Positions 8,861 to 52,801 of a DNA stretch of 64,000 bases are shown here, in pieces (positions within the stretch are counted from its first letter, which is position 1; each line of letters opens with the position of its first letter). Location: assembly GCA_000002445.1 (NCBI GenBank), contig CH464491.1:3840001-3904000 (forward strand). The letters are read 5' to 3'. The notes beneath the pieces were generated by a model. It did no database searches, was not told the DNA's origin, and was given only the letters and a program-made list of their open reading frames with translations. This DNA comes from Trypanosoma brucei. Taxonomy: Eukaryota. Made by a program: the position numbers and the translations under genes.

Positions 8861-9673
8861 TCAGGTAAGCAGCACCATCAGTTTATTCAATATTTCCCTG
8901 TTTTCTTCCTCTAGTGCTTGGAGTTTCTGAACAGATTCCAATTGCCGCTTGATGGCTGTTTCTAGAGCTTCTTGCGGCAGTGGTGTTGGCTGTGTTTCGG
9001 CTGTGTCGTTTTGAAGCTCCTTGTACATTGCTACAATGCTCTCCCCCATATCCTTCACTGAGGTCTGTTCGTCCAAATGAAACTGCCCAAAAGCACTTAA
9101 CTTCTCGAAGAAATTAGTCGATTCCTGGGAAAGTTTAACCTTTTCTAGCGCCCTTTCCGAATCCTCCCACTTCTGCTCCGACGAAGTCGTATCCACAAGC
9201 ACCTTTTCCCTTGTTGACGCCCGTGCACCTTTCCCATCAGCAGTCTGTTGACGTGAACTTTCCGCTGATTGTGCGCCTTGGTTTTTCTTTGCCTTGTCCT
9301 GCTGAGCGTAACCGACAGCCATCGCAAGGCATTGCAAGAAAGTATTTGTCCTCTCTGGCTCGCTTCCCGAAACTATTTTCTTCACGTTTACGTCCACTTT
9401 CTTTCCTAGCAAGGAGCTTATATATTCAACTAAGGTTGTGAGGTACTCAATTTTCTTCTCCTTTGAGTCTATGCATGAAGCGTCTAGTTGATCCGGGCGA
9501 AATATATGATCGTACGCCGCGAAACGAGCGTTGATTGAAGTGACGATGTCATGAATGAACCGGAAGGGCGGGCGCTTCAACAATTTTGGCGTAAGTTCTG
9601 GATTTCCCAACTGAAGCGGAGCGAAAGCTTGCACAGTAGCCGACCAAAAGTCCACTTCTCCTTCAGTGGCCAT
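8861..9673 (-). CDS. IFT54: intraflagellar transport protein IFT54 (TRAF3IP1/MIP-T3 homologue), 270 aa
   Basis: The N-terminal segment LTPKLLKRPPFRFIHDIVTSI...IVSGSEPERTNTFLQCLA aligns with the TRAF3IP1 CH-like domain ([21 protein letters not shown]...IVAGHEPERTNELLQIIG). The C-terminus is coiled-coil. The start is the ATG at 9673 (MATEGEVDFW). The track ORF begins at 9880 and runs through the (AT)14 repeat, which I treat as a spurious extension. Confidence 0.75.
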   Translation of the reverse strand: MATEGEVDFWSATVQAFAPLQLGNPELTPKLLKRPPFRFIHDIVTSINARFAAYDHIFRPDQLDASCIDSKEKKIEYLTTLVEYISSLLGKKVDVNVKKIVSGSEPERTNTFLQCLAMAVGYAQQDKAKKNQGAQSAESSRQQTADGKGARASTREKVLVDTTSSEQKWEDSERALEKVKLSQESTNFFEKLSAFGQFHLDEQTSVKDMGESIVAMYKELQNDTAETQPTPLPQEALETAIKRQLESVQKLQALEEENREILNKLMVLLT

Positions 9674-9711
9674 CGTCACGAAATAGGCAGAGGATGAACA
9701 AGGCACAAACG

Positions 9712-9716
<5 letters not shown>

Positions 9717-9744
<28 letters not shown>
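9717..9744. repeat. (AT)14 microsatellite in the IFT54 5' flank
   Basis: Direct read. Confidence 0.95.
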
Positions 9745-9748
<4 letters not shown>

Positions 9749-10039
9749 GGATACGCGTGGATGCTTGTCCCGCTCCTCACTAGTGTATTCACTGTTGATT
9801 TTTAAGGATGAGAAGGATGAGGGCATTATAAGATAACGAGAGCAATACAAGAGAGTTAAGCAACGGAGCCGACATTTCATCTAGGTTTGTGCACACAAGA
9901 GTAGATTGTGCTTGGTGCACAAATACTGTCAATTAGAGGCGTCTGTAATACGCATTCTTCCTACATGCACATATACTTATGTACATATATTATTCGTCTG
10001 AAAACATTTGTGTGTGTGTCGTTACTCGTAAACTTATAC

Positions 10040-23224: not shown

Positions 23225-24343
23225 TTATTTGTACGTTGGAGGGCGGAGGCCACTCTTCTGGTACTGCGTTTTCTCCTCCCGTGACATGGCTCCAGCTGGA
23301 ACAACATTCTTCACGGAATTGTTCACGTTCTGAAGCCATATGCGGACACCGAAGATGCGGAACAACTCACTGTTCAGCTGCCGGAAATCAATAGAGCGGG
23401 ATGCCTCGTAGTAGAAACTGATCTTCTGTTGATCGAATTGATACTCGCAATCAACGACATCCATGTCGAGCCCAAGGCGCGCTACAATCTCGCGGCATGT
23501 CTTTAAGGCCAGATTCTCATTGCGCGAGATCTCCCCGAAAAGGCGCTCCACTTCCTCCTCCGTTGCCACGCGCAATACTCGACCCATTTCACCCTTCATC
23601 CGCACCACATTCGTCACATTGCCGTCAAAACTCTCTTCACGGACGATGCAGCCCTTCTCAGCATTCCATTCACTGCATTGGTTGACAACACCACAATCGT
23701 GGCCGCGGTCTCCCTGTACAATAGCGTACTGTCCGGGTGTGATGAAGGAACTGCTCACGCACCGCTTCATGCGTTGGCATTTGAATTCGACCAACAAAAT
23801 GAAGCAGTCGTGTCTCTTCCAGCTGTTGTGATCATCTCCACGAGTGGCACTCGAGGACTGTGGGTTTGATAGGGCCCTCTTGTTATCGGTAGCTTTTATG
23901 TGCTCCTCCTCCTTGTCCCTTGTGGAAACCATCGGAGTCGTAACGGTGTCTATCGTCCCACTGGTAAGTGGATCATGGGTAGGAGATTCAAAGAACTGAG
24001 GGGCAGAGTGCGTAGCGTGTGGCATGGCACTACTCAGCATCGAAACAAAGTTGGGCTCCTCTTCAGGAAAGGCGGGATGCACAGCTTCGATTGTTGAGGT
24101 TTGTGATGTAGAGGTTAGTAACTCAGGTGCGGTGGGTAATTGCCTTTGCTGAACCAGGTGCAGCATAAGTCCATAAATAGCATCCACTTTACGGGAGAGT
24201 TGGTCCAACTTTTCTGCGATGCCTTCATCAGTAGTAAATACCGGTGCCGTCATTCGCGCCGCTACCTCCATGTCAGATTCATGCATGTGATGAGGATGCA
24301 CCTGACGCTTGCTTTGGGTCACGTTAGTCAGATCGTGGAACAT
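23225..24343 (-). CDS. PSP1 C-terminal domain-containing protein (372 aa)
   Basis: The C-terminal half (QYAIVQGDRGHDCGVV...VATEEEVERL...CREIVARLGLDMDVVDCEYQFDQQKISFYYEASRSIDFRQL) matches the PSP1-C conserved region. The first ATG is 24343 (MFHDLTNV). The track N-terminus runs through a (TAA)n/(TTA)n stretch and is spurious. Confidence 0.65.
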   Translation of the reverse strand: MFHDLTNVTQSKRQVHPHHMHESDMEVAARMTAPVFTTDEGIAEKLDQLSRKVDAIYGLMLHLVQQRQLPTAPELLTSTSQTSTIEAVHPAFPEEEPNFVSMLSSAMPHATHSAPQFFESPTHDPLTSGTIDTVTTPMVSTRDKEEEHIKATDNKRALSNPQSSSATRGDDHNSWKRHDCFILLVEFKCQRMKRCVSSSFITPGQYAIVQGDRGHDCGVVNQCSEWNAEKGCIVREESFDGNVTNVVRMKGEMGRVLRVATEEEVERLFGEISRNENLALKTCREIVARLGLDMDVVDCEYQFDQQKISFYYEASRSIDFRQLNSELFRIFGVRIWLQNVNNSVKNVVPAGAMSREEKTQYQKSGLRPPTYK

Positions 24344-24845
24344 TGCAAATAGTGGAGCTAACTTAAATAGTGATGTTGTGCTACACAGTGGAAACTGGTG
24401 GAATCGCTTATAATAAATATACTTATTTTGAAAATGTAAAAATAATAATAATAATAAAACAACAACAGTCAAAACAGTGAAGTAAGTTATACCAACAATA
24501 CCGAAAAGAAGTGGTGAGGGACAGATTCTGTGAATTTACACTAACCGCAGCACAACTCACAATAACCTCCATCTACCCCACTAGTAGTATATGCGGCTGT
24601 CGTTACCGAATAACCAGAAGAAAGGGTAATACCAGTTAACGGGAATAAACAAATAGGAAAGTGAACCCACAGTTTTACACCCGAATAAAGAAATCAATAT
24701 GGACTTCTCGATGTATAGGGCACTACGTACAGATTAAATACAAACTGATCTTCAAGTTGAAACAAAAACGAAAACGATGAGTTACATGTATCGAAACGTA
24801 AGTAGTTCGGAGGTGTTGCGAACTACTTCGCAGAATATCTCATCC

Positions 24846-32192: not shown

Positions 32193-34652
32193 TCACTTGT
32201 GGTGTTTCCACGTCGCACAGTACAGTGCAAGCTCCAAGACGGATGGGTTAGACGCCGAAAGGGCTTTGCCATTATTAACCATGCGTTGTAATTCTTTCCA
32301 CTTCTTCCACTTTGTCTCAGCCTCCGCAACGTTGGGAAGTGACGAGGAGAAATGCAGTGCCCCGGGATGAACAGTTACCATACGGGGGGAGACATTTATC
32401 ATGCGCAATTGAGAGAACTTCTTCACGCGACTCGCAGCAACATAAATGATATGGTTACAGGGAAAGAACCCCTTGCAGTCTAGCAGTATAGAATGATCCA
32501 GAGTGAGTCCTTGCGTCTTGTGTACAGTAAATGCATAGGCAGGTACGAGGGGCATTGTGACGACACGTGCAGTACAAAACACTCGGTCTTGCAGATCCGG
32601 TAGCGGAAGGGATAACCAAGGTATAGCCACATCCTTTCCGTCAGCGTCCATCCGCACAATGGGAACAATAACGTCGTCATAGTTGACAACGTCAAGCGCC
32701 TGTTCCTTCCCATTGCCGCCGTATGAATTTTCTGATGACCCGGCCGAACTGTCACTACTAACCACTGGTCTCCGTGAAAGAGAGGCGTACACTTTCCGCG
32801 AAAGTTGGGTTCTGATACCTTTGGGAAATAAATGCCGAGATTTATTTACAGGTTGAAAGCCGATGACGGTACCGGTAGAGCCGTTAACGTACTCATTGCT
32901 TAAGTTTCGCAGTAGTATTACCCTACAACCGACCTTTAGTCTCTTGCTTTGGAGTACATTATCACTCTCTATCACCTTCGAGTATGCCTGCTTCAGGGAG
33001 GCGCGCAGAAAAGTACTGAGGGAGTTCTTATGTTTCACTTCAAACAGCACCCTACCAAAAAACCTTCGAGCGGATTTACTTTCGGGCGTGGTACCGTAAT
33101 AACTACGCTCCCATTCTGCTTTCATTTTAGCCACTGGATAGAGACAATCGTACTGCTTACTCACACAAAAGTGTACGTAGACTTTCAGATAGGGTTGTCT
33201 TGAACTATAAGGAGGTGCTACTACAGAAGTGGCTATACCGGAGATGCCACACCGCGTGCATATCTGTCCCACAAACTTCTTCACTTCCCGTTGCCATCTT
33301 CGGGAGGACCTCATCTTCTCTAGGAAGTGCAACACCACCACATCATTACAACCGTCGACGTTGTTTGCTCCTCGACTGTTCGGCGATGCATGACCTTTGG
33401 GGCCGGAAAGACCGGCTGACTCAACTATACTCCGAAATAGATGTTCCTCCCCGTCAAGTTCAAGCATTTTACTTTCATTAAACGCCGCCACAGATCGGCG
33501 GGTGGGATAGAGTTGGATGGCGTTAGGATCTTCCGGATTAACCAACGCAGACCGCATCATGCGACGAGTGAGAACACCTTGACGGAGCTTGTTGAGGTCA
33601 TTCAGAAATGCGGTGTCACCATGCCGCTTAACTTCGCAAAGTTGAAGGTGAAGCAAACAGGTTAAGAAGAGAGGGCTCTCGAAGATTAGACCACTGCTTG
33701 TCCGCTGACGCTCACCTACACAAATATTTTTCACCGCCGACATAATATGTCCCTGGTCTGTGACAGCAGCTGTAGAGCTTACGTCGCTTCTATTTTGTCC
33801 TGCTGTATTCTCGGTGGTTTCGTCCCCTCGGTAACCAATTTTGTTGCCTGCATCACCACCGCCATCTTGAGAAGTACAATTCTCAGTGCTATGCATTAGT
33901 TGCATGAAGTCTCCGCATAATATAACTTGAATGCCACCAAATGGAAGGTGAGGTATCCTTCCAGGTGCCCCGCGGGCGGCAATATCCAGCCCCTCCAAAT
34001 GTCTAGCGTGTAAAAGCGATACTTCATCCACAACAATAACGTCCACTTTGGCAAGAAGACTCTTGCTGTAGCGAAGGATCGAGACGGCACATGATTCGTT
34101 TGTCTCACTGTTACCAACGGAGGTAACTCGTACTCCAAATGTGCTGTGAAAAGTGCTTCCCCCAATGTTGAGTGCAGCTATTCCGGTAGATGCCGTTACG
34201 ACAACGTCAAGGTCCTTCGCCCTTAACGCTGTCACAATACTCTGGATCATATATGACTTACCGACACCAGCACCACCACCAATGAAAAGCGGAGCTCCAT
34301 CAAGGACAAGTGTGAGAGCCCTCCGCTTCTCCTCATTGAGACCGAGTGACGAAAAAGCTGACTCATCACCGCTTGATTTTTCCTTTTCCTGAAGCCCCAG
34401 GTCGTTGTGGCCAGCGCTAGACGCCTGCCGACAGGTCTTCGTGTCTCTTTCCTTGATTTCGTTGACTTCTGCAGCCCCACAACAGGAAGTACTCTCCGGT
34501 GCAGGGGAAAGCTGCCCCCCTTTTTCACCTTCTGCAGCAACGGTCCAAGCAGAAACACCTTTCGCAAGGCGGGATTGCCGTCCTTCTCGCCCCGGTGCAA
34601 AAAGCAGTCTTCCATACGTTAGCAATAGAGTCCTGGTGGAGTTGAGGAGCAT
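32193..34652 (-). CDS. PIF1-family 5'-3' DNA helicase (819 aa) with lineage-specific insertions
   Basis: Walker A (FIGGGAGVGKSY), ASTGIAALNIGGSTFHS, the DEVSLL motif and the PIF1 signature region are present. A C-terminal FTVHKTQGLTLD motif is also present. ATG verified at 34652. Confidence 0.85.
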   Translation of the reverse strand: MLLNSTRTLLLTYGRLLFAPGREGRQSRLAKGVSAWTVAAEGEKGGQLSPAPESTSCCGAAEVNEIKERDTKTCRQASSAGHNDLGLQEKEKSSGDESAFSSLGLNEEKRRALTLVLDGAPLFIGGGAGVGKSYMIQSIVTALRAKDLDVVVTASTGIAALNIGGSTFHSTFGVRVTSVGNSETNESCAVSILRYSKSLLAKVDVIVVDEVSLLHARHLEGLDIAARGAPGRIPHLPFGGIQVILCGDFMQLMHSTENCTSQDGGGDAGNKIGYRGDETTENTAGQNRSDVSSTAAVTDQGHIMSAVKNICVGERQRTSSGLIFESPLFLTCLLHLQLCEVKRHGDTAFLNDLNKLRQGVLTRRMMRSALVNPEDPNAIQLYPTRRSVAAFNESKMLELDGEEHLFRSIVESAGLSGPKGHASPNSRGANNVDGCNDVVVLHFLEKMRSSRRWQREVKKFVGQICTRCGISGIATSVVAPPYSSRQPYLKVYVHFCVSKQYDCLYPVAKMKAEWERSYYGTTPESKSARRFFGRVLFEVKHKNSLSTFLRASLKQAYSKVIESDNVLQSKRLKVGCRVILLRNLSNEYVNGSTGTVIGFQPVNKSRHLFPKGIRTQLSRKVYASLSRRPVVSSDSSAGSSENSYGGNGKEQALDVVNYDDVIVPIVRMDADGKDVAIPWLSLPLPDLQDRVFCTARVVTMPLVPAYAFTVHKTQGLTLDHSILLDCKGFFPCNHIIYVAASRVKKFSQLRMINVSPRMVTVHPGALHFSSSLPNVAEAETKWKKWKELQRMVNNGKALSASNPSVLELALYCATWKHHK

Positions 34653-35109
34653 GACGTGGCTCGAGCATTAACCAAGCGACCAACGCGGACAGTGGAGGTT
34701 CACGACATTAGAGGTAACATGCAATGAAAGAAAAAAAAGAAAAGAGCAGTAAGTTGTGTGGTGGCCTAAGCCTGCGGCAGTGACGGTGTGCAGTCCCCCT
34801 TAACAACTACAGTACACACAAACAAACAGGAAATACATGCCGTTGGGGTCATATGCACTTACTCCCCTCGGGTAGTGAAGGTAAAACAGGTGTACGAACG
34901 AATAAATAAAATTTATAACTGACCAACATGTACCAAAACAATAAAAAGATTAAACAACAATTTAGAAAATCTAAAAGTCAGCATATTTCTTCATTATGAT
35001 AACTGCATATAGGTGACAGATGTGGGGCGTGTGGGAATGGAGACAAACGTCTAAACAAGAAATATTGAGTTGAGCCTACAGCTTGTTTTCCGCCGTTTAT
35101 TCTATAAAT

Positions 35110-36531
35110 CTATCGCTGACGCAGATTGCACTGCAGTTCCGAAGTTCTATGCATCTGACCAGTTCTTCGTGTAGGCCCCGACTCGGCCCGTTGCTGCATG
35201 GGTGAACCCCGGATTCTGGGTTCCACCGGGTTCCGACTACACTGTGCTCTAAGTTTAGTGCGCAGGTCCAAGAGTTGGCGGTGTTCTTCGGGTGATAAAT
35301 ACACAGAATGACATCGGGCCTCTGGTAGTAGGTACTCCCCTGTATCACCACGAGAAACAATGACGCCGCGGAGTCTGAGAAGGGCAAAGAGCTCTGCTCC
35401 CGTTAAAATGTCCAGGACGGTTCTCTGCGGAGCCGTTTTGCGCGGCAAAACAGGGCGGACGGGGTCGCCACCGACTTGTGATGGGGTCCTTCCTCGAGGT
35501 CCTGAGTTTCCCCTAATCGTGTTTTTACACGAAACACTCTTTTCGGTAACGCGAGGAGAACCTGGAGAGTGCGGTGCGCGGGCGAAAATGGGGCGCATGA
35601 AGTTTGTGCCTTGTACTCGGTGTTGGCATGACCCACGCGAAACCAGAGGCCGAGAAACTTCAGTAACAACGGAACTGCTGCGGACTGTAGGGCGTTTATC
35701 TTCCCCAGCGCACAGATACTCTGTGTCTAACGCACACGAACCACAACCCTTGTCCACATACTGTTTGTATTGTTTCTCAGAACTTTCCCTGACTGGCCCT
35801 TGCGTTTTGTTACTAGGTGTTTCTGCTGTGGCAGTCCATGGCTCATGCAGCGGGCTGTTCTCTGCAGCACTGTTTGAGATATTTCGTTGCTCCACTGGTA
35901 GGTTGTTGACGGATCCCACAGTATCTGAAGGGTGATTACTGCTTGATACCTTTTTGCGCAGCTTCTCACGGAGACGGATCTCCATTGCCTGGAGGGGGTC
36001 AAAAGAGCCACCTACCAGATGAGTTAAGGGTTGAGACGACGACACGTGCACCTGCCTTTCCGCTTGTAAAACTCCCGCTTGTGGGGGACCCCCATTAATG
36101 TTATTATTTTTTGTGTACGGTGCTCCAAGTTGATACGTTGTTTTGATGCTCTCTTGCTCCTTTATGCCCGAGTCACACATTTCTACCTCCTCCACGAGTG
36201 CTGTGGTGCTCCCTTTCCTTCGTGAAGTGTTAAGTGTCTTTATGTTACCATCACCCGCTTCTTCACGGAGCACTGATAGTTTCTCTTCCTTCGTAAAGAT
36301 GCGCTCCGCACTTGATGAAATCGAAGTCTGGCGTTTACGGGGGAGTTCCTCATCAGCTGCGTGTGAAACGATGCTATTCCTTTCATCCTGTTGATAAACT
36401 TCAGGTGATCTGCCGGGCACAAACCCAGCATCAAATTCTTCATCACGCTGAAGGCACTGGCTTATGTTCATTAAACGATCACGCATCTCGTTAATTTTGC
36501 AGTCGACATCGGCCAAAGATTCTGAGGGCAT
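35110..36531 (-). CDS. hypothetical Ser-rich protein (473 aa) with possible C-terminal SAP-like motif
   Basis: ATG verified at 36531. Mostly low complexity. LDILTGAELFALLRLRGVIVSRGDTGEYLL fits the SAP L-x2-L-x-V-x-EL-x2-L-x2-RGL pattern loosely. Confidence 0.45.
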   Translation of the reverse strand: MPSESLADVDCKINEMRDRLMNISQCLQRDEEFDAGFVPGRSPEVYQQDERNSIVSHAADEELPRKRQTSISSSAERIFTKEEKLSVLREEAGDGNIKTLNTSRRKGSTTALVEEVEMCDSGIKEQESIKTTYQLGAPYTKNNNINGGPPQAGVLQAERQVHVSSSQPLTHLVGGSFDPLQAMEIRLREKLRKKVSSSNHPSDTVGSVNNLPVEQRNISNSAAENSPLHEPWTATAETPSNKTQGPVRESSEKQYKQYVDKGCGSCALDTEYLCAGEDKRPTVRSSSVVTEVSRPLVSRGSCQHRVQGTNFMRPIFARAPHSPGSPRVTEKSVSCKNTIRGNSGPRGRTPSQVGGDPVRPVLPRKTAPQRTVLDILTGAELFALLRLRGVIVSRGDTGEYLLPEARCHSVYLSPEEHRQLLDLRTKLRAQCSRNPVEPRIRGSPMQQRAESGPTRRTGQMHRTSELQCNLRQR

Positions 36532-36866
36532 TCACAATGAGTCCACTAATATGTACAAAGAGGAAGGTAAACAAAATACAGTACCGGTATAAAAGTATAT
36601 GGAAAGCCTATAGAGACAAGTGACAAAGCTAGTGTGAACGGTTTAACGTTACTTGGAACTGACAACAGCCGATTTGAGTACCCATGTCAGAGCGGTTCAT
36701 GTTAAATACAGTGAAAATCGCGACACAACAACAAAAAAAAATTCTCAATACAACCTCATACAATGTCACCGTTTTCACCTAGCGCAGTGATACGCGGTTC
36801 CCGTCGTGCGCAACATACCCTCAAACCCACATCGGGAAAGAGTGGTGTACGAGTCCAAAATGCATA

Positions 36867-37808
36867 TCACTTATGATGAATGATGCGTCTCACCGCCGTC
36901 TCCAAATCCCGCCATACCGGAAAGAATTTCTTATTGTGTTTACAAACATTGATTACTTCCAACTGGGAGGTTAGTTCGTTTTCCATAATGTCACGGGAAG
37001 TTTTCCTCCCTGCTACTCGCCTCCTCTCGCTAATGGCACGAAGAAGTCCTTGGTCACCGCTCACAACAATCAAAGGCATATGAACCATTGCGTACGCAAT
37101 TTGCATAATGACACCGTCAGCTGCCTGCTGTTGACCACCACATGGTGTAAAGTGCAAACGCCCCTCGTCCGCGAGGTGCTTCCACACACTTTTCTTTCCT
37201 TGGCCCCAATTCAAGTTATTCACATCGCTATGTCTGGCATCAGCCTCGGACCCGCTGTTGCGTTGGCAAACGACATGTGCATCGGGCAACACTCCATGAT
37301 AACGTGCGAAGCATGAGCTAAAGAAACTCCACACAAATAAGTGATCCAGTACATTGATGTTACTGCCTTCACTTCTCCGCGGTGGGACGCTTTTGAATTG
37401 ATTGAAACCGTAGTTGTCTAGGTCAAGTAGCAAAACAACAGTTTTCCTACCCCCAACCCTGTCCCCTGTCGGCCTCAAATCCCTTTTAAACCGCCCCTGC
37501 AACTTTGAAAGACTCGATGACGCCTTCAACACTTCACAGTAGACACAGTGGCATTCATCACTGACCCACGAATCTCCGTTAATAAGTTTTTCATCATACA
37601 TTCTTGTGGCACCGTCAGCAGGCCCCGCCACACAGGAGAAACCTTCGCTCCCTGGGCGATGTAACTGCACCACGAGAGCGTCGTCATTAGGCGTTAGGGC
37701 AGAAGAACTGCCACTATCTTGAATCGAAGAACAAGCACACTCAGAAACACCTCCCGGTGCGGAGGAGGAATTATCTGCCTCAGCATCGAAGTCTAACTCA
37801 GCGAACAT
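36867..37808 (-). CDS. NYN/PIN-like nuclease domain protein (313 aa)
   Basis: VVLLLDLDNYGF, AADGVIMQIAYAM and IVVSGDQGLLRAI match the three conserved acidic-residue blocks of NYN domains. The first ATG is 37808 (MFAELDFD). The track N-terminus comes from (TA)n/(GA)n repeat translation. Confidence 0.55.
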   Translation of the reverse strand: MFAELDFDAEADNSSSAPGGVSECACSSIQDSGSSSALTPNDDALVVQLHRPGSEGFSCVAGPADGATRMYDEKLINGDSWVSDECHCVYCEVLKASSSLSKLQGRFKRDLRPTGDRVGGRKTVVLLLDLDNYGFNQFKSVPPRRSEGSNINVLDHLFVWSFFSSCFARYHGVLPDAHVVCQRNSGSEADARHSDVNNLNWGQGKKSVWKHLADEGRLHFTPCGGQQQAADGVIMQIAYAMVHMPLIVVSGDQGLLRAISERRRVAGRKTSRDIMENELTSQLEVINVCKHNKKFFPVWRDLETAVRRIIHHK

Positions 37809-37812
37809 ATAA

Positions 37813-37824
37813 CTTGAATATATG

Positions 37825-37868
<44 letters not shown>
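37813..37868 (-). promoter_or_regulatory. (TC)10-(TA)12 microsatellite acting as polypyrimidine tract, with AG 4-5 nt upstream of the ATG
   Basis: The minus strand reads TCTCTCTCTCTCTCTCTCTC TATATATATATATATATATATACATATATTCAAG, followed by TTAT and the ATG. The call is inferred. Confidence 0.3.
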
Positions 37869-38169
37869 CCACACAAAAGAAACGTAAAACCTCCCTCTGC
37901 CGCCACTAGAGCTGGGATGCTGAAGAGAAGAAAAAAAAAGGCAGAAGGTGGTAAAATGGAAATCTGCAGTATTGGGAGCATCTTAACCGAGTAATTACGG
38001 AATGTGCATGAGAAAAAAGAAATGGAATGAGTTACAGATAAGTTTGTACGAGCGTGCGAGCACATTCATGTGTCTTCCTATGAATGCACACGAAAACAGT
38101 TGAAGGAAAGGCCCCGATAACAACTGCAATGACGTGTAGATGCATGCACAGTGCATGCAACCTTGTTGA

Positions 38170-51685: not shown

Positions 51686-52801
51686 CTACTCCTGAGCCTC
51701 CGCATTTTCTTCAGCAGGAGCATCACCCGCCGCCTCCTCTGGAGCATCTTGTGCAACCTCCTCCTGTGGTTCCTCAACGGGCTGTTCGGTAGCTTCCTCA
51801 GCAGGTTGCTCAGCCGGTTCCTCAACTGGTTGCGAAACTTCCTCAGCAGGTTGCTCCACCGGGTACGATGTTTCCTCCGCGAGTTCCTCAGTTTGCTGTG
51901 GTTCCTCTGCAGGCACCTCAGCCGGTTGTGAAGCTTCTTCCAGAGGTTCCTCAACGGGCTGTTCGGTAGCTTCCTCCACGGGTTGCTCAGCCGGCTCCTC
52001 AACTGGTTGCGAAACCTCCTCAGCAGGTTGCTCAGCCGGCTCCTCAGCTGGTTGCGAAACCTCCTCAGCAGGTTGCTCCACCGGGTACGATGTTTCCTCC
52101 GCGAGTTCCTCAGTTTGCTGTGGTTCCTCTGCAGGCACCTCAGCCGGTTGTGAAGCTTCCTCCGCAGGTTGCTCGGTTTCCTCCTCAGGTTTATCAGCTG
52201 GTTCTGGGGCCTGCTCCGCGGGTTGCTCAACTGGGTATGGATCCTCCTCTTTCTTGGGGCTCTTGAGGGCCTCTTGAATTGGTTTAGTAGAGTAGATTGA
52301 CGGCGTTATATCACATGTTGCACCCACTGGAGGAGCAGCGCTTCGAGAACCACTGACGCCAGTATAACCGATAGCCTTCACTTCGTCCGCACCAGTGCCC
52401 TTGGCTCCTTCTGTCCCTCTCTTCGTTCGGAAGCTGCTTATCAGACCTTGTTTGTAACTTGCCGCCTCTGACATGTCCCGCGTGCGCTGATCCCGCTTGT
52501 ACTCCTCCATAAACCTCTCTTGCCATTGAATTCCCTCCATGACAAGGTCCCGACGCTCAGTGTTGGATCTACGGCGCTCCTCAATGTACGCACGGAGCAC
52601 CTCCTCCTTCACCACTTCTTCCGACTCCGTTTCCTTCAGGTCGGACATGTTCACGAGCTCTGCGTGTCGCACCCACGTATCATCATTGATACAGCTTAAG
52701 TAGTCGCGGATAACCACATCATCGGGAACTAACGATTTGTGTGTCTTGTCCTCATCCACATAGAGCTGAGCAAGAGCAGTAGATGTGGGGTCAGCAGACA
52801 T
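51686..52801 (-). CDS. acidic tandem-repeat protein (371 aa): globular N-terminal ~190 aa plus P/A/E/Q-rich repeats
   Basis: ATG verified at 52801. The C-terminal half is encoded by about 177-bp imperfect tandem repeats with 45-bp sub-repeats (QPAEEVSQPVEEPAE). Confidence 0.6.
   Translation of the reverse strand: MSADPTSTALAQLYVDEDKTHKSLVPDDVVIRDYLSCINDDTWVRHAELVNMSDLKETESEEVVKEEVLRAYIEERRRSNTERRDLVMEGIQWQERFMEEYKRDQRTRDMSEAASYKQGLISSFRTKRGTEGAKGTGADEVKAIGYTGVSGSRSAAPPVGATCDITPSIYSTKPIQEALKSPKKEEDPYPVEQPAEQAPEPADKPEEETEQPAEEASQPAEVPAEEPQQTEELAEETSYPVEQPAEEVSQPAEEPAEQPAEEVSQPVEEPAEQPVEEATEQPVEEPLEEASQPAEVPAEEPQQTEELAEETSYPVEQPAEEVSQPVEEPAEQPAEEATEQPVEEPQEEVAQDAPEEAAGDAPAEENAEAQE
51700..52250. 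repeat. coding tandem repeat array, unit ~177 bp (one copy expanded to 222 bp by a 45-bp internal duplication)
   Basis: Near-identical segments start at 51768 and 51945 (ggttcctcaacgggctgttcggtagcttcctc...). A near-identical 97-nt block recurs at 51841 and 52063. Confidence 0.8.

What the first reader, a model, noticed from the sequence alone, without database searches (positions are those of the whole stretch)
36867..37874. NYN/PIN-like RNase-domain protein whose 5' flank is a (TC)10-(TA)12 compound microsatellite abutting the start codon
Two separate points. First, the protein has the three acidic blocks of NYN nucleases (DLDN, AADG, SGDQG), the family of Zc3h12a/MARF1-type RNases. Such an endonuclease is interesting in a parasite that regulates genes almost purely post-transcriptionally. 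Second, the only pyrimidine tract upstream of its ATG is a perfect (TC)10 microsatellite followed by (TA)12. The first AG lies 4-5 nt before the ATG, implying an extremely short 5'UTR. Alternatively, a downstream ATG is used and trans-splicing efficiency depends on microsatellite length. Length polymorphism of this repeat between strains could directly tune expression.
Basis: partly seen in the sequence, partly recalled or inferred. Interest (0 to 1): 0.5.

Follow-up and report, generated by a model that had tools for sequence, protein, structure and literature searches.

The report
Divergent PIN-like nuclease gene, ordinary microsatellite
This Trypanosoma brucei gene (Tb927.11.14810) encodes an uncharacterised protein that looks like a distant relative of the NYN/PIN family of nucleases, and the dinucleotide repeat in front of it is a common, length-variable repeat that is not the only possible splicing signal.

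Summary
The sequence features are real. On the minus strand, (TC)10(TA)12 is followed 16 nt later by ATG 37808. An AG lies 4 nt before that ATG. The 313-aa protein contains DLDN, AADG and SGDQG. By synteny numbering the gene is Tb927.11.14810 (Tb11.01.6440), protein Q381V4, "hypothetical protein, conserved".

The family does hit PIN_11 (PF18479), an NYN-group PIN-like domain. The scores are E 2.8e-4 for T. brucei (below the curated cut-off), 15 of 56 relatives at E<0.01, and 27.4 bits for the family consensus (cut-off 26.6). D129, D131, N132, D231 and D252 are invariant from trypanosomes to Acrasis. Fold searches are uninformative.

The splicing argument rests on a wrong premise. A T-rich 27-nt pyrimidine tract with an AG sits 111 nt upstream and is conserved in four assemblies. 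The repeat is therefore most likely inside the 5'UTR, or a secondary acceptor signal. Its length does vary between assemblies: (TC)10(TA)12, (TC)4(TA)6 and (TC)5(TA)5. The invariant N-terminus MFxExxF rules out a downstream start codon.

Verdict: a plausible divergent PIN-like nuclease of modest interest. The microsatellite is ordinary, and no spliced-leader site for this gene could be found.

The parts
36867..37808 (-). CDS of Tb927.11.14810 / Tb11.01.6440 (Q381V4): 313 aa plus a TGA stop, 34.6 kDa
   Evidence: The translation is 100% identical to XP_829539.1/EAN80427.1 (T. brucei TREU927) and to T. equiperdum TEOVI_000858600. The gene ID comes from synteny numbering anchored on PMI Tb927.11.14780/Tb11.01.6410, PCD1 Tb927.11.14750 and coordinates in the Kolev supplement.
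37788..37808 (-). Invariant N-terminal motif M-F-x-E-x-x-F, which fixes the start codon
   Evidence: M1, F2, E4 and F7 are invariant in 19 trypanosomatid orthologues and are kept in most of the 56 wider relatives.
37536..37661 (-). Conserved N-terminal module: H50-R-P-G ... G78-D-x-W ... C86-x-C88-x-x-C91-E. This is a putative zinc-binding knuckle (inferred, not shown).
   Evidence: H50, C86, C88 and C91 are invariant in trypanosomatids, and CxCxxC is kept across the wider family. Residues 80-117 have pLDDT 82-95 in the AF2 model.
36894..37445 (-). Predicted PIN-like (NYN-group) alpha/beta core, residues about 122-305, with five beta-alpha units
   Evidence: AF2 core model has pLDDT 82.7 and strands at residues 124-129, 157-163, 218-222, 246-250 and 283-287. 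PIN_11 PF18479 hits are.
37413..37424 (-). DLDN (D129, D131, N132) at the C-terminal end of strand 1
   Evidence: Invariant in 24 diverse family cores.
37113..37124 (-). AADG (D231) at the start of the helix after strand 3
   Evidence: D231 is invariant and Q228 nearly invariant. It aligns with the EADD metal-binding motif of FEN-type 5'-3' exonucleases in weak matches.
37047..37061 (-). SGDQG (D252) at the end of strand 4. The canonical second Asp of the NYN motif 'SGDxD' is absent.
   Evidence: D252 is invariant and the following residues vary.
37849..37868 (-). (TC)10 microsatellite as read on the minus strand, (AG)10.5 on the plus strand. It is a possible secondary polypyrimidine tract.
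   Evidence: Length varies between assemblies: 10, 4, 5 and at least 9 units.
37825..37848 (-). (TA)12 microsatellite. An imperfect extension reaches 37818.
   Evidence: There are 12, 6 and 5 units in three assemblies.
37813..37814 (-). AG dinucleotide 4 nt before the ATG.
   Evidence: Position -3 is A, which the rules in Kolev 2010 allow.
37920..37948 (-). T-rich polypyrimidine tract (37948-37922) plus AG (37921/37920). This is the most likely main spliced-leader acceptor region. Further AGs lie at 37913/12, 37907/06 and 37898/97.
   Evidence: It is conserved in four Trypanozoon assemblies, with only a TT-to-CC change in two of them. The rule 'first AG after the longest pyrimidine run' reproduces 4 of 4 mapped 5' ends in this window.

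Best explanation
The locus is Tb927.11.14810, a single-copy gene in a minus-strand polycistron on T. brucei chromosome 11.

Protein. It encodes a 313-aa protein in three parts:
- an acidic, disordered N-terminus that begins with an invariant MFxExxF motif;
- a conserved His/Cys module (H50, C86-x-C88-x2-C91), inferred to bind zinc;
- a five-stranded alpha/beta core that is a divergent member of the PIN-like nuclease superfamily. Its closest relative is the NYN-group family PIN_11.

Four invariant aspartates (D129, D131, D231, D252) and N132 lie at the C-terminal ends of strands 1, 3 and 4. PIN and NYN nucleases hold their catalytic Mg2+/Mn2+ at these positions. The most likely activity is therefore metal-dependent endonucleolytic cleavage of nucleic acid, probably RNA. 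The activity and the substrate are inferred, not shown.

Microsatellite. The (TC)10(TA)12 repeat is an ordinary polymorphic intergenic microsatellite. The spliced leader is most likely added at the AG cluster just after the T-rich tract, 88-111 nt upstream of the ATG. That places the repeat inside the 5'UTR. The (TC)n tract with the AG 4 nt before the ATG may act as a secondary acceptor.
For: Identity and conservation. There are 62 relatives among 1.84 billion representatives, including the euglenid Neometanema and the heterolobosean Acrasis.

Catalytic-type residues are invariant in 24 diverse cores.

PIN_11 hits:
- T. brucei protein: 21.5 bits, E 2.8e-4.
- 15 of 56 relatives at E<0.01.
- Family consensus: 27.4 bits against a cut-off of 26.6, E 4e-6. 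The other weak hits are mostly PIN-like too: NYN_YacP, PIN_4 and 5_3_exonuc_N.
- Distant members match PIN_11 profile positions 3-55 and T. brucei matches 37-103, so both halves are covered in the same order.
- PIN_11 is placed in the NYN group by Matelska 2017, PMC5499597.

The best weak PDB and E. coli matches put QAAD...TGD in register with the metal-binding motifs of a mycobacterial 5'-3' exonuclease, Xni and YaiI. UniRef names the T. vivax orthologue 'NYN domain-containing protein'.

Splicing:
- The upstream tract and its AG are, and they are conserved in four assemblies.
- Published rules: tract median 18 nt, T preferred over C, median 5'UTR 130 nt including the 39-nt spliced leader.
- The rule was calibrated 4 of 4 on mapped sites in this window.
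- A second repeat, (AT)14, lies inside an experimentally mapped 5'UTR in the same window.
Against: - No hit to PF01936 or PF11977.
- The T. brucei protein itself is below the PIN_11 curated cut-off.
- Foldseek finds nothing significant.
- The canonical fourth Asp of NYN (SGDxD) is missing.
- hhalign against single PIN-like sequences is not significant.
- No spliced-leader site for this gene could be retrieved.
- The TriTrypDB transcript length of 1121 nt leaves 176 nt of UTR in total. That fits either acceptor.
Confidence: 0.55

Rival explanations
1. The (TC)n microsatellite is the functional polypyrimidine tract. The spliced leader is joined at the AG 4 nt before the ATG, so repeat length sets trans-splicing efficiency and expression.
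For: - (TC)10T is a 21-nt uninterrupted pyrimidine run, as long as the upstream one.
- The next AG has A at position -3 and lies 35 nt downstream, within published ranges. 5'UTRs as short as the bare spliced leader exist.
- A 3'UTR of about 172 nt plus a 5'UTR of 4 nt also sums to the annotated 1121-nt transcript.
- The repeat is length-polymorphic.
Against: - It is not the only tract. A T-rich tract with an adjacent AG lies upstream and is transcribed first.
- Trypanosome tracts prefer T over C.
- In DAL972 and GCA_003543875 the TC run is only 4-5 units (9-11 nt), while the upstream tract is intact.
- Orthologues in T. vivax, T. cruzi and Leptomonas have no repeat near the ATG. They have ordinary tract-AG pairs 46-165 nt upstream.
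Confidence: 0.3
2. The protein is not a nuclease. It is another Rossmann-like enzyme, for example a HAD-type phosphatase that uses the DxD of DLDN, or a catalytically inert PIN-like scaffold.
For: - DLDN resembles HAD motif I, DxDx[T/V].
- The fourth NYN Asp is missing.
Against: - No HAD, receiver-domain or PTA Pfam family appears even at E<=10 for the family consensus, whereas PIN-like families recur.
- HAD motifs II-IV are not conserved in the family.
- hhalign against E. coli Gph gives only an irrelevant 15-column match.
- Four Asp and one Asn are invariant across the Discoba, which argues against an inert scaffold.
Confidence: 0.12
3. It is a PIN-like nuclease that acts on DNA (FEN-like, or linked to the nearby PIF1 helicase) rather than on RNA.
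For: - The best weak sequence matches in PDB and E. coli are 5'-3' flap exonucleases.
- A PIF1-like helicase lies two genes downstream in all trypanosomatids checked.
- One database protein (P0024) joins the two.
Against: - P0024 is a collinear merge of three neighbouring genes, so it is a gene-model artefact.
- From general knowledge of these polycistronic genomes (not tested here), gene order in trypanosomatids does not imply shared function.
- The significant hit is to the NYN group, whose characterised members are RNases.
Confidence: 0.1

Closest known systems
PIN_11 (Pfam PF18479), the C-terminal domain of metazoan ZNF451; NYN group of the PIN-like superfamily (Matelska et al. 2017, PMC5499597)
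   Same: It is the only Pfam family hit significantly and repeatedly. Both have a minimal NYN-type alpha/beta core with at least four conserved Asp. Both have conserved Cys/His residues associated with the domain.
   Different: PIN_11 is described as specific to Eumetazoa and fused to C2H2 zinc fingers. This family is found in Discoba and has no C2H2 fingers. Its Cys/His module lies N-terminal to the core. The T. brucei protein scores below the curated cut-off.
NYN domain proper (PF01936; LabA-like 2qip, MARF1) and NYN_YacP (Rae1, 5mq8)
   Different: There is no PF01936 hit. The second Asp of SGDxD is absent and an extra invariant Asp (D131) is present. A long conserved loop, DLDNxGF, replaces the helix that directly follows strand 1. 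There are no LOTUS or other partner domains.
Regnase-1/ZC3H12A (PF11977): a PIN-like RNase with an adjacent CCCH zinc finger
   Same: Similar in design only: a small PIN-like catalytic core next to a putative Cys/His metal-binding module that could help bind RNA.
   Different: No HMM hit. The zinc finger is C-terminal and CCCH in Regnase. Here the module is N-terminal with the pattern H...CxCxxC.
Trypanosome trans-splice acceptor architecture (Kolev 2010, PMC2936537)
   Same: Both candidate acceptors have a pyrimidine tract of at least 20 nt, an AG and no G at position -3. The upstream one gives a 5'UTR of 111+39 nt, close to the genome median of 130 nt.
   Different: A perfect alternating (TC)10 is C-rich compared with typical T-rich tracts. 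A 4-nt gap between the spliced leader and the AUG would be near the extreme of the distribution.

Membership tests
Pfam NYN (PF01936) | Match to the family HMM at or above the gathering score | tested here: not met
   No PF01936 hit at E<=1 in 19 orthologues, at E<=0.01 in 56 relatives, or at E<=10 for the window protein and for two family consensus sequences.
Pfam NYN (PF01936) | Four conserved acidic residues predicted to bind one metal ion (Anantharaman and Aravind 2006, cited from memory) | tested here: inconclusive
   Four Asp are invariant: D129, D131, D231 and D252. The canonical fourth position (SGDxD) is not acidic, and D131 is an extra residue in strand-1 motif DxDN.
Pfam NYN (PF01936) | PIN-like alpha/beta fold without the helical insert after strand 2 | tested here: inconclusive
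PIN_11 (PF18479) | Match to the family HMM at or above the gathering score of 26.6 bits | tested here: inconclusive
   T. brucei protein: 21.5 bits, E 2.8e-4. Best single member: E 2.5e-5, with 15 of 56 at E<0.01. Family consensus: 27.4 bits, E 4e-6.
PIN_11 (PF18479) | Eumetazoan distribution and fusion to C2H2 zinc fingers (ZNF451 architecture) | tested here: not met
   The relatives that could be traced are kinetoplastids, a euglenid and a heterolobosean; many are unnamed metagenome or Logan sequences. No C2H2 or other Pfam domain is found.
PIN domain-like superfamily | Significant similarity to at least one member family, with conserved acidic residues at the C-terminal ends of the core strands | tested here: met
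   PIN_11 E-values are 2.8e-4 to 4e-6. Weak hits to NYN_YacP, PIN_4 and 5_3_exonuc_N are in register. Invariant Asp lie at the ends of strands 1, 3 and 4.
PIN domain-like superfamily | Metal-dependent nuclease activity | not testable with these tools
   This needs recombinant protein assays with Asp-to-Asn mutants.
RNase_Zc3h12a / Regnase (PF11977) | HMM match and a CCCH zinc finger C-terminal to the PIN core | tested here: not met
   No hit. The Cys/His module is N-terminal, with the pattern H...CxCxxC.
HAD phosphatase superfamily | Motifs I (DxDx[T/V]), II (S/T), III (K/R) and IV (GDxxxD/DD), and a match to a HAD HMM | tested here: not met
   DLDN has Asn where HAD has T/V. Candidate motif II-IV positions are not conserved. 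No HAD family is hit at E<=10. hhalign against Gph is irrelevant.
Trypanosome spliced-leader acceptor at the microsatellite | Spliced-leader addition mapped experimentally to the AG at 37813 | not testable with these tools
   The supplements of Nilsson 2010 and Kolev 2010 that are held as text have no entry for this gene, and none are held for Siegel 2010.

The most novel reading that the evidence does not exclude
Tb927.11.14810 may be the founding member of an undescribed, Discoba-wide family of small endoribonucleases. The family would have a DxDN...AAD...GD active site, which is an NYN-like core that has swapped the position of its fourth acidic ligand. It would also have an N-terminal H/CxCxxC zinc knuckle and an invariant MFxExxF docking motif. 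It would act in cytoplasmic mRNA decay in organisms that control genes mostly after transcription. Its own expression would be modulated by a polymorphic 5'UTR/acceptor microsatellite.
Probability: 0.15. Interest if true: 0.6.

Novelty: new member of a known kind. Interest (0 to 1): 0.3.

Why it matters
Trypanosomes control gene expression mainly through mRNA processing and decay. In eukaryotes generally, characterised NYN-type nucleases act as endonucleases in RNA decay or processing.

This gene is a conserved, single-copy, uncharacterised PIN-like protein. Its catalytic-type residues are invariant from trypanosomes to heteroloboseans. That makes it a reasonable candidate nuclease to test by RNAi, localisation and active-site mutants.

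Its mRNA is rare and short-lived. There are about 1 copy per cell and a half-life of about 5 min in bloodstream forms.

The microsatellite matters less. Such repeats are common between genes here, and another one in this window already lies inside a mapped 5'UTR. At most it is a convenient strain marker, and a testable case of a repeat that could create a second splice acceptor.

Tried and rejected
1. Gene identity. I first suspected Tb927.11.14750, an mRNA-binding, PABP-associated protein. It is the PSP1-C protein PCD1 at window 23225-24472, so this was rejected. Numbering anchored on PMI, PCD1 and the Kolev coordinates gives Tb927.11.14810.

2. A 'fusion' of this domain to a PIF1 helicase in P0024. 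It is a collinear merge of three syntenic genes, so a gene-model artefact.

4. Sequence searches.
- Sequence and profile searches of PDB gave nothing significant.
- NCBIfam gave nothing.
- A second database search with a 24-sequence core profile at E<=10 returned only family members.
- hhalign of the profile against single E. coli proteins (Xni, YaiI and the HAD enzyme Gph) gave probabilities below 2% for all three.

5. Spliced-leader and other genome-wide data.
- The text-held supplements of Nilsson 2010, Kolev 2010, TrypTag 2023 and Erben 2014 do not contain the gene.
- Siegel 2010 has no supplements held.
- Alsford 2011 and Siegel 2005 are not held.

6. The 1121-nt transcript length cannot be split between the two acceptor models. 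Both give plausible poly(A) positions.

7. The bacterial promoter and terminator scan is irrelevant here.
Full report
**What is in the sequence**

The feature lies on the minus strand. Read 5'->3', the flank is ...GTGTGG (TC)10 (TA)12 CATATATTCAAGTTAT ATG TTC GCT....
- (TC)10 occupies 37868-37849 and (TA)12 occupies 37848-37825.
- The ATG is at 37808 and the stop codon ends at 36867.
- TRF reports the two repeats with scores 42 and 55.
- The first AG after the repeat is 4 nt before the ATG.

The 335-aa ORF that ends at 37874 is a mechanical GTG-initiated ORF. It translates the repeat itself. The real protein has 313 aa and contains DLDN (129-132), AADG (229-232) and SGDQG (250-254). The descriptive part of the finding is therefore correct apart from the ORF boundary.

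The statement that the repeat is the only pyrimidine tract upstream is wrong.
- CCTTCTGCCTTTTTTTTTCTTCTCTTC (37948-37922) is followed at once by AG (37921/20), 111 nt before the ATG.
- More AGs lie 103, 97 and 88 nt before the ATG.
- There is no upstream ATG in between.

**Where it comes from**

The protein is identical to T. brucei TREU927 XP_829539.1/EAN80427.1 (UniProt Q381V4) and to a T. equiperdum protein.

Neighbouring ORFs anchor the numbering:
- a PSP1-C protein, Tb927.11.14750 (PCD1);
- a CLU protein;
- phosphomannose isomerase, Tb927.11.14780 = Tb11.01.6410;
- a PIF1-like helicase.

Supplementary lists of Kolev et al. 2010 give chromosome coordinates for four genes. These equal the window coordinates plus 3,840,000. 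All four mapped 5' ends fall immediately after an AG in the window, which validates the mapping. Counting in tens from these anchors, the gene is Tb927.11.14810 / Tb11.01.6440.

Fadda et al. 2014 list it as 'hypothetical protein, conserved':
- The TriTrypDB transcript length is 1121 nt.
- Bloodstream forms have about 1.25 mRNAs per cell with a half-life of 5.0 min.
- Procyclic forms have about 0.73 mRNAs per cell with a half-life of 0.4 min.

No paper in the library discusses the gene.

**The protein family**

A word-indexed search found only kinetoplastid homologues. An exhaustive HMM search of 1.84 billion representative proteins found just 62 relatives. Those that can be traced include the euglenid Neometanema and the heterolobosean Acrasis kona. 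The family is therefore small and, as far as it can be traced, confined to the Discoba.

Conservation:
- In 19 trypanosomatid orthologues the N-terminus M-F-x-E-x-x-F is invariant. So are H50, C86, C88, C91, D129, D131, N132, W160, D231 and D252.
- In 24 diverse core sequences the only invariant residues are D129, D131, N132, G134, W160, D231 and D252. This pattern is what a metal-binding active site would show.

AlphaFold models give five beta-alpha units (full length pLDDT 75, core pLDDT 83). The invariant Asp residues lie at the C-terminal ends of strands 1, 3 and 4.

**Is it NYN or PIN-like?**

PF01936 is not hit by the T. brucei protein, by 19 orthologues, by 56 wider relatives or by two family consensus sequences. 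RNase_Zc3h12a is not hit either.

The one family that recurs is PIN_11 (PF18479):
- T. brucei protein: 21.5 bits, E 2.8e-4, below the curated 26.6 bits.
- 15 of 56 relatives at E<0.01, best 2.5e-5.
- Family consensus: 27.4 bits, E 4e-6.
- Distant members match profile positions 3-55 (the DLDN strand). The trypanosome protein matches 37-103 (AAD...SGD). Both halves of the domain are therefore covered in the same order.

Matelska et al. 2017 define PIN_11 as the C-terminal domain of metazoan ZNF451. They describe it as a minimal NYN-group variant of the PIN-like fold, with at least four conserved Asp and conserved Cys/His residues.

The remaining weak hits of the consensus include NYN_YacP, PIN_4 and 5_3_exonuc_N. 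No HAD or receiver-domain family appears even at E<=10. The best weak PDB match puts QAAD...TGD in register with the EADD...SGDRD metal-binding motifs of a mycobacterial 5'-3' exonuclease. Profile comparisons with E. coli Xni and YaiI pick the same register, but they are not significant.

Structure comparison does not help:
- Foldseek finds nothing significant.

My conclusion is that membership of the PIN-like superfamily, closest to the NYN group, is supported by sequence statistics and by the active-site pattern. Membership of Pfam NYN or of the Regnase/MARF1 families is not. The family departs from canonical NYN in three ways:
- it lacks the second Asp of SGDxD;
- it has an extra invariant Asp in DxDN;
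- it carries a conserved DLDNxGF loop.

**Mechanism proposed**

What is shown:
- a conserved ORF;
- invariant Asp and Asn residues at positions typical of PIN-like active sites;
- significant similarity to PIN_11.

What is inferred:
- The four Asp residues bind Mg2+/Mn2+ and the protein cleaves nucleic acid endonucleolytically.
- RNA is the more likely substrate, because characterised NYN-group enzymes are RNases.
- The H50/CxCxxC module binds zinc and helps bind the substrate, as the CCCH finger does in Regnase.
- The invariant MFxExxF N-terminus is a docking motif.

The acidic N-terminus (pI 4.05 over the first 45 residues) does not look like a mitochondrial presequence.

**The microsatellite and trans-splicing**

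Published rules for T. brucei acceptors come from Kolev 2010:
- an AG with no G at position -3;
- a pyrimidine tract with a median length of 18 nt (range 7-79), starting a median of 43 nt upstream, with T preferred over C;
- a median 5'UTR of 130 nt including the 39-nt spliced leader.

In this window the rule 'first AG after the longest pyrimidine run' reproduces 4 of 4 experimentally mapped 5' ends.

The gene has two runs of equal length.
- The T-rich run has its AG 111 nt before the ATG. This gives a 5'UTR of 111+39 nt, close to the median.
- The (TC)10T run has its AG 4 nt before the ATG.

The upstream signal is richer in T and is transcribed first. It is intact in all four Trypanozoon assemblies examined. 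In contrast, the TC run shrinks to 4-5 units in T. b. gambiense DAL972 and in GCA_003543875.

Orthologues in T. vivax, T. cruzi and Leptomonas have no repeat near the ATG. They have ordinary tract-AG pairs further upstream.

Dinucleotide repeats are common here. There are 13 of at least 8 units in 64 kb, 12 of them between ORFs. One of them, (AT)14 at 9717-9744, lies inside the mapped 5'UTR of Tb11.01.6310, about 44 nt before its probable ATG.

I therefore think the repeat most likely lies inside the 5'UTR. The annotated 1121-nt transcript leaves 176 nt of UTR. That is compatible with either acceptor.

The downstream-ATG alternative is refuted. The N-terminus is invariant. The gene is also absent from the Kolev supplementary list (file 17) in which the one entry from this window, Tb11.01.6310, has its mapped 5' end downstream of the annotated ATG. 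I did not read the header of that file.

The predicted length polymorphism is real at the assembly level: (TC)10(TA)12, (TC)4(TA)6 and (TC)5(TA)5. The T. equiperdum assembly has a gap at the repeat. Any effect on expression is untested.

**Verdict**

The protein is a plausible, uncharacterised and divergent PIN-like (NYN-group) nuclease conserved across the Discoba. It is a new member of a known kind. An automated annotation already labels one orthologue 'NYN domain-containing'. The microsatellite is an ordinary polymorphic intergenic repeat, and the splicing argument built on it starts from a wrong premise. Interest is modest.

Noticed in passing
window 9672-9880 (minus strand), Tb11.01.6310, the MIP-T3-domain gene: The mechanical or annotated ATG at 9880 lies upstream of the 5' end mapped by Kolev 2010 (chr11 3,849,791 = window 9791). 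The real start is probably ATG 9672. (AT)14 at 9717-9744 then lies inside the mapped 5'UTR, about 44 nt before the ATG. This is a second case in the window of a repeat close to a start codon.
   Followed up: partly
window 37788-37808 (minus strand), residues 1-7: The extreme N-terminus M-F-x-E-x-x-F is invariant in all 19 trypanosomatid orthologues and is kept in most distant relatives, although the next 40 or so residues are disordered and variable. It looks like a short docking or processing motif of unknown partner.
   Followed up: no
P0024 (EukProt, 1461 aa) compared with window 32193-37808: This database protein appears to fuse the PIN-like domain to a PIF1 helicase. It is a collinear merge of three neighbouring genes: the PIN-like gene, the 473-aa gene and the PIF1-like gene. 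It is therefore a gene-model artefact and not a real fusion.
   Followed up: yes
window 35110-36531 (minus strand), the 473-aa neighbour, inferred Tb927.11.14800: The protein has no Pfam domain. It has a short, strongly conserved C-terminal stretch (LTGAELFALLRLRGVIVSRGDTGEYLLPEARCH) that is 57% identical to the matching part of the distant sequence P0024.
   Followed up: no
L001:2640-3020 (T. equiperdum OVI, CZPT02000805.1): The assembly has a run of N exactly at the (TC)n(TA)n repeat. The repeat length in this strain is therefore unknown beyond at least 9 TC units. The repeat is evidently hard to assemble.
   Followed up: partly
window 37790-37919 (minus strand), the putative 5'UTR: If the upstream acceptor is used, the purine-rich GGCAGAGGGAGG (37900-37889) can pair with the (UC)n run, and (UA)12 can fold on itself. 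The MFE is -31.5 kcal/mol and z is -2.1 against shuffles. This is a modest, unverified structure just before the AUG whose stability would change with repeat length.
   Followed up: no
window 51793-52078 (minus-strand ORF 51686-52801): Tandem repeats of 21-24 and 45 nt lie inside a 371-aa ORF that has no Pfam hit. The 45-nt unit has 2.2 copies at 98% identity. This is a repetitive coding region.
   Followed up: no
Fadda 2014 supplementary table 4, entry Tb927.11.14810: The mRNA is rare and very unstable. There are about 1.25 copies per cell with a half-life of 5.0 min in bloodstream forms, and about 0.73 copies per cell with a half-life of 0.4 min in procyclic forms.
   Followed up: partly
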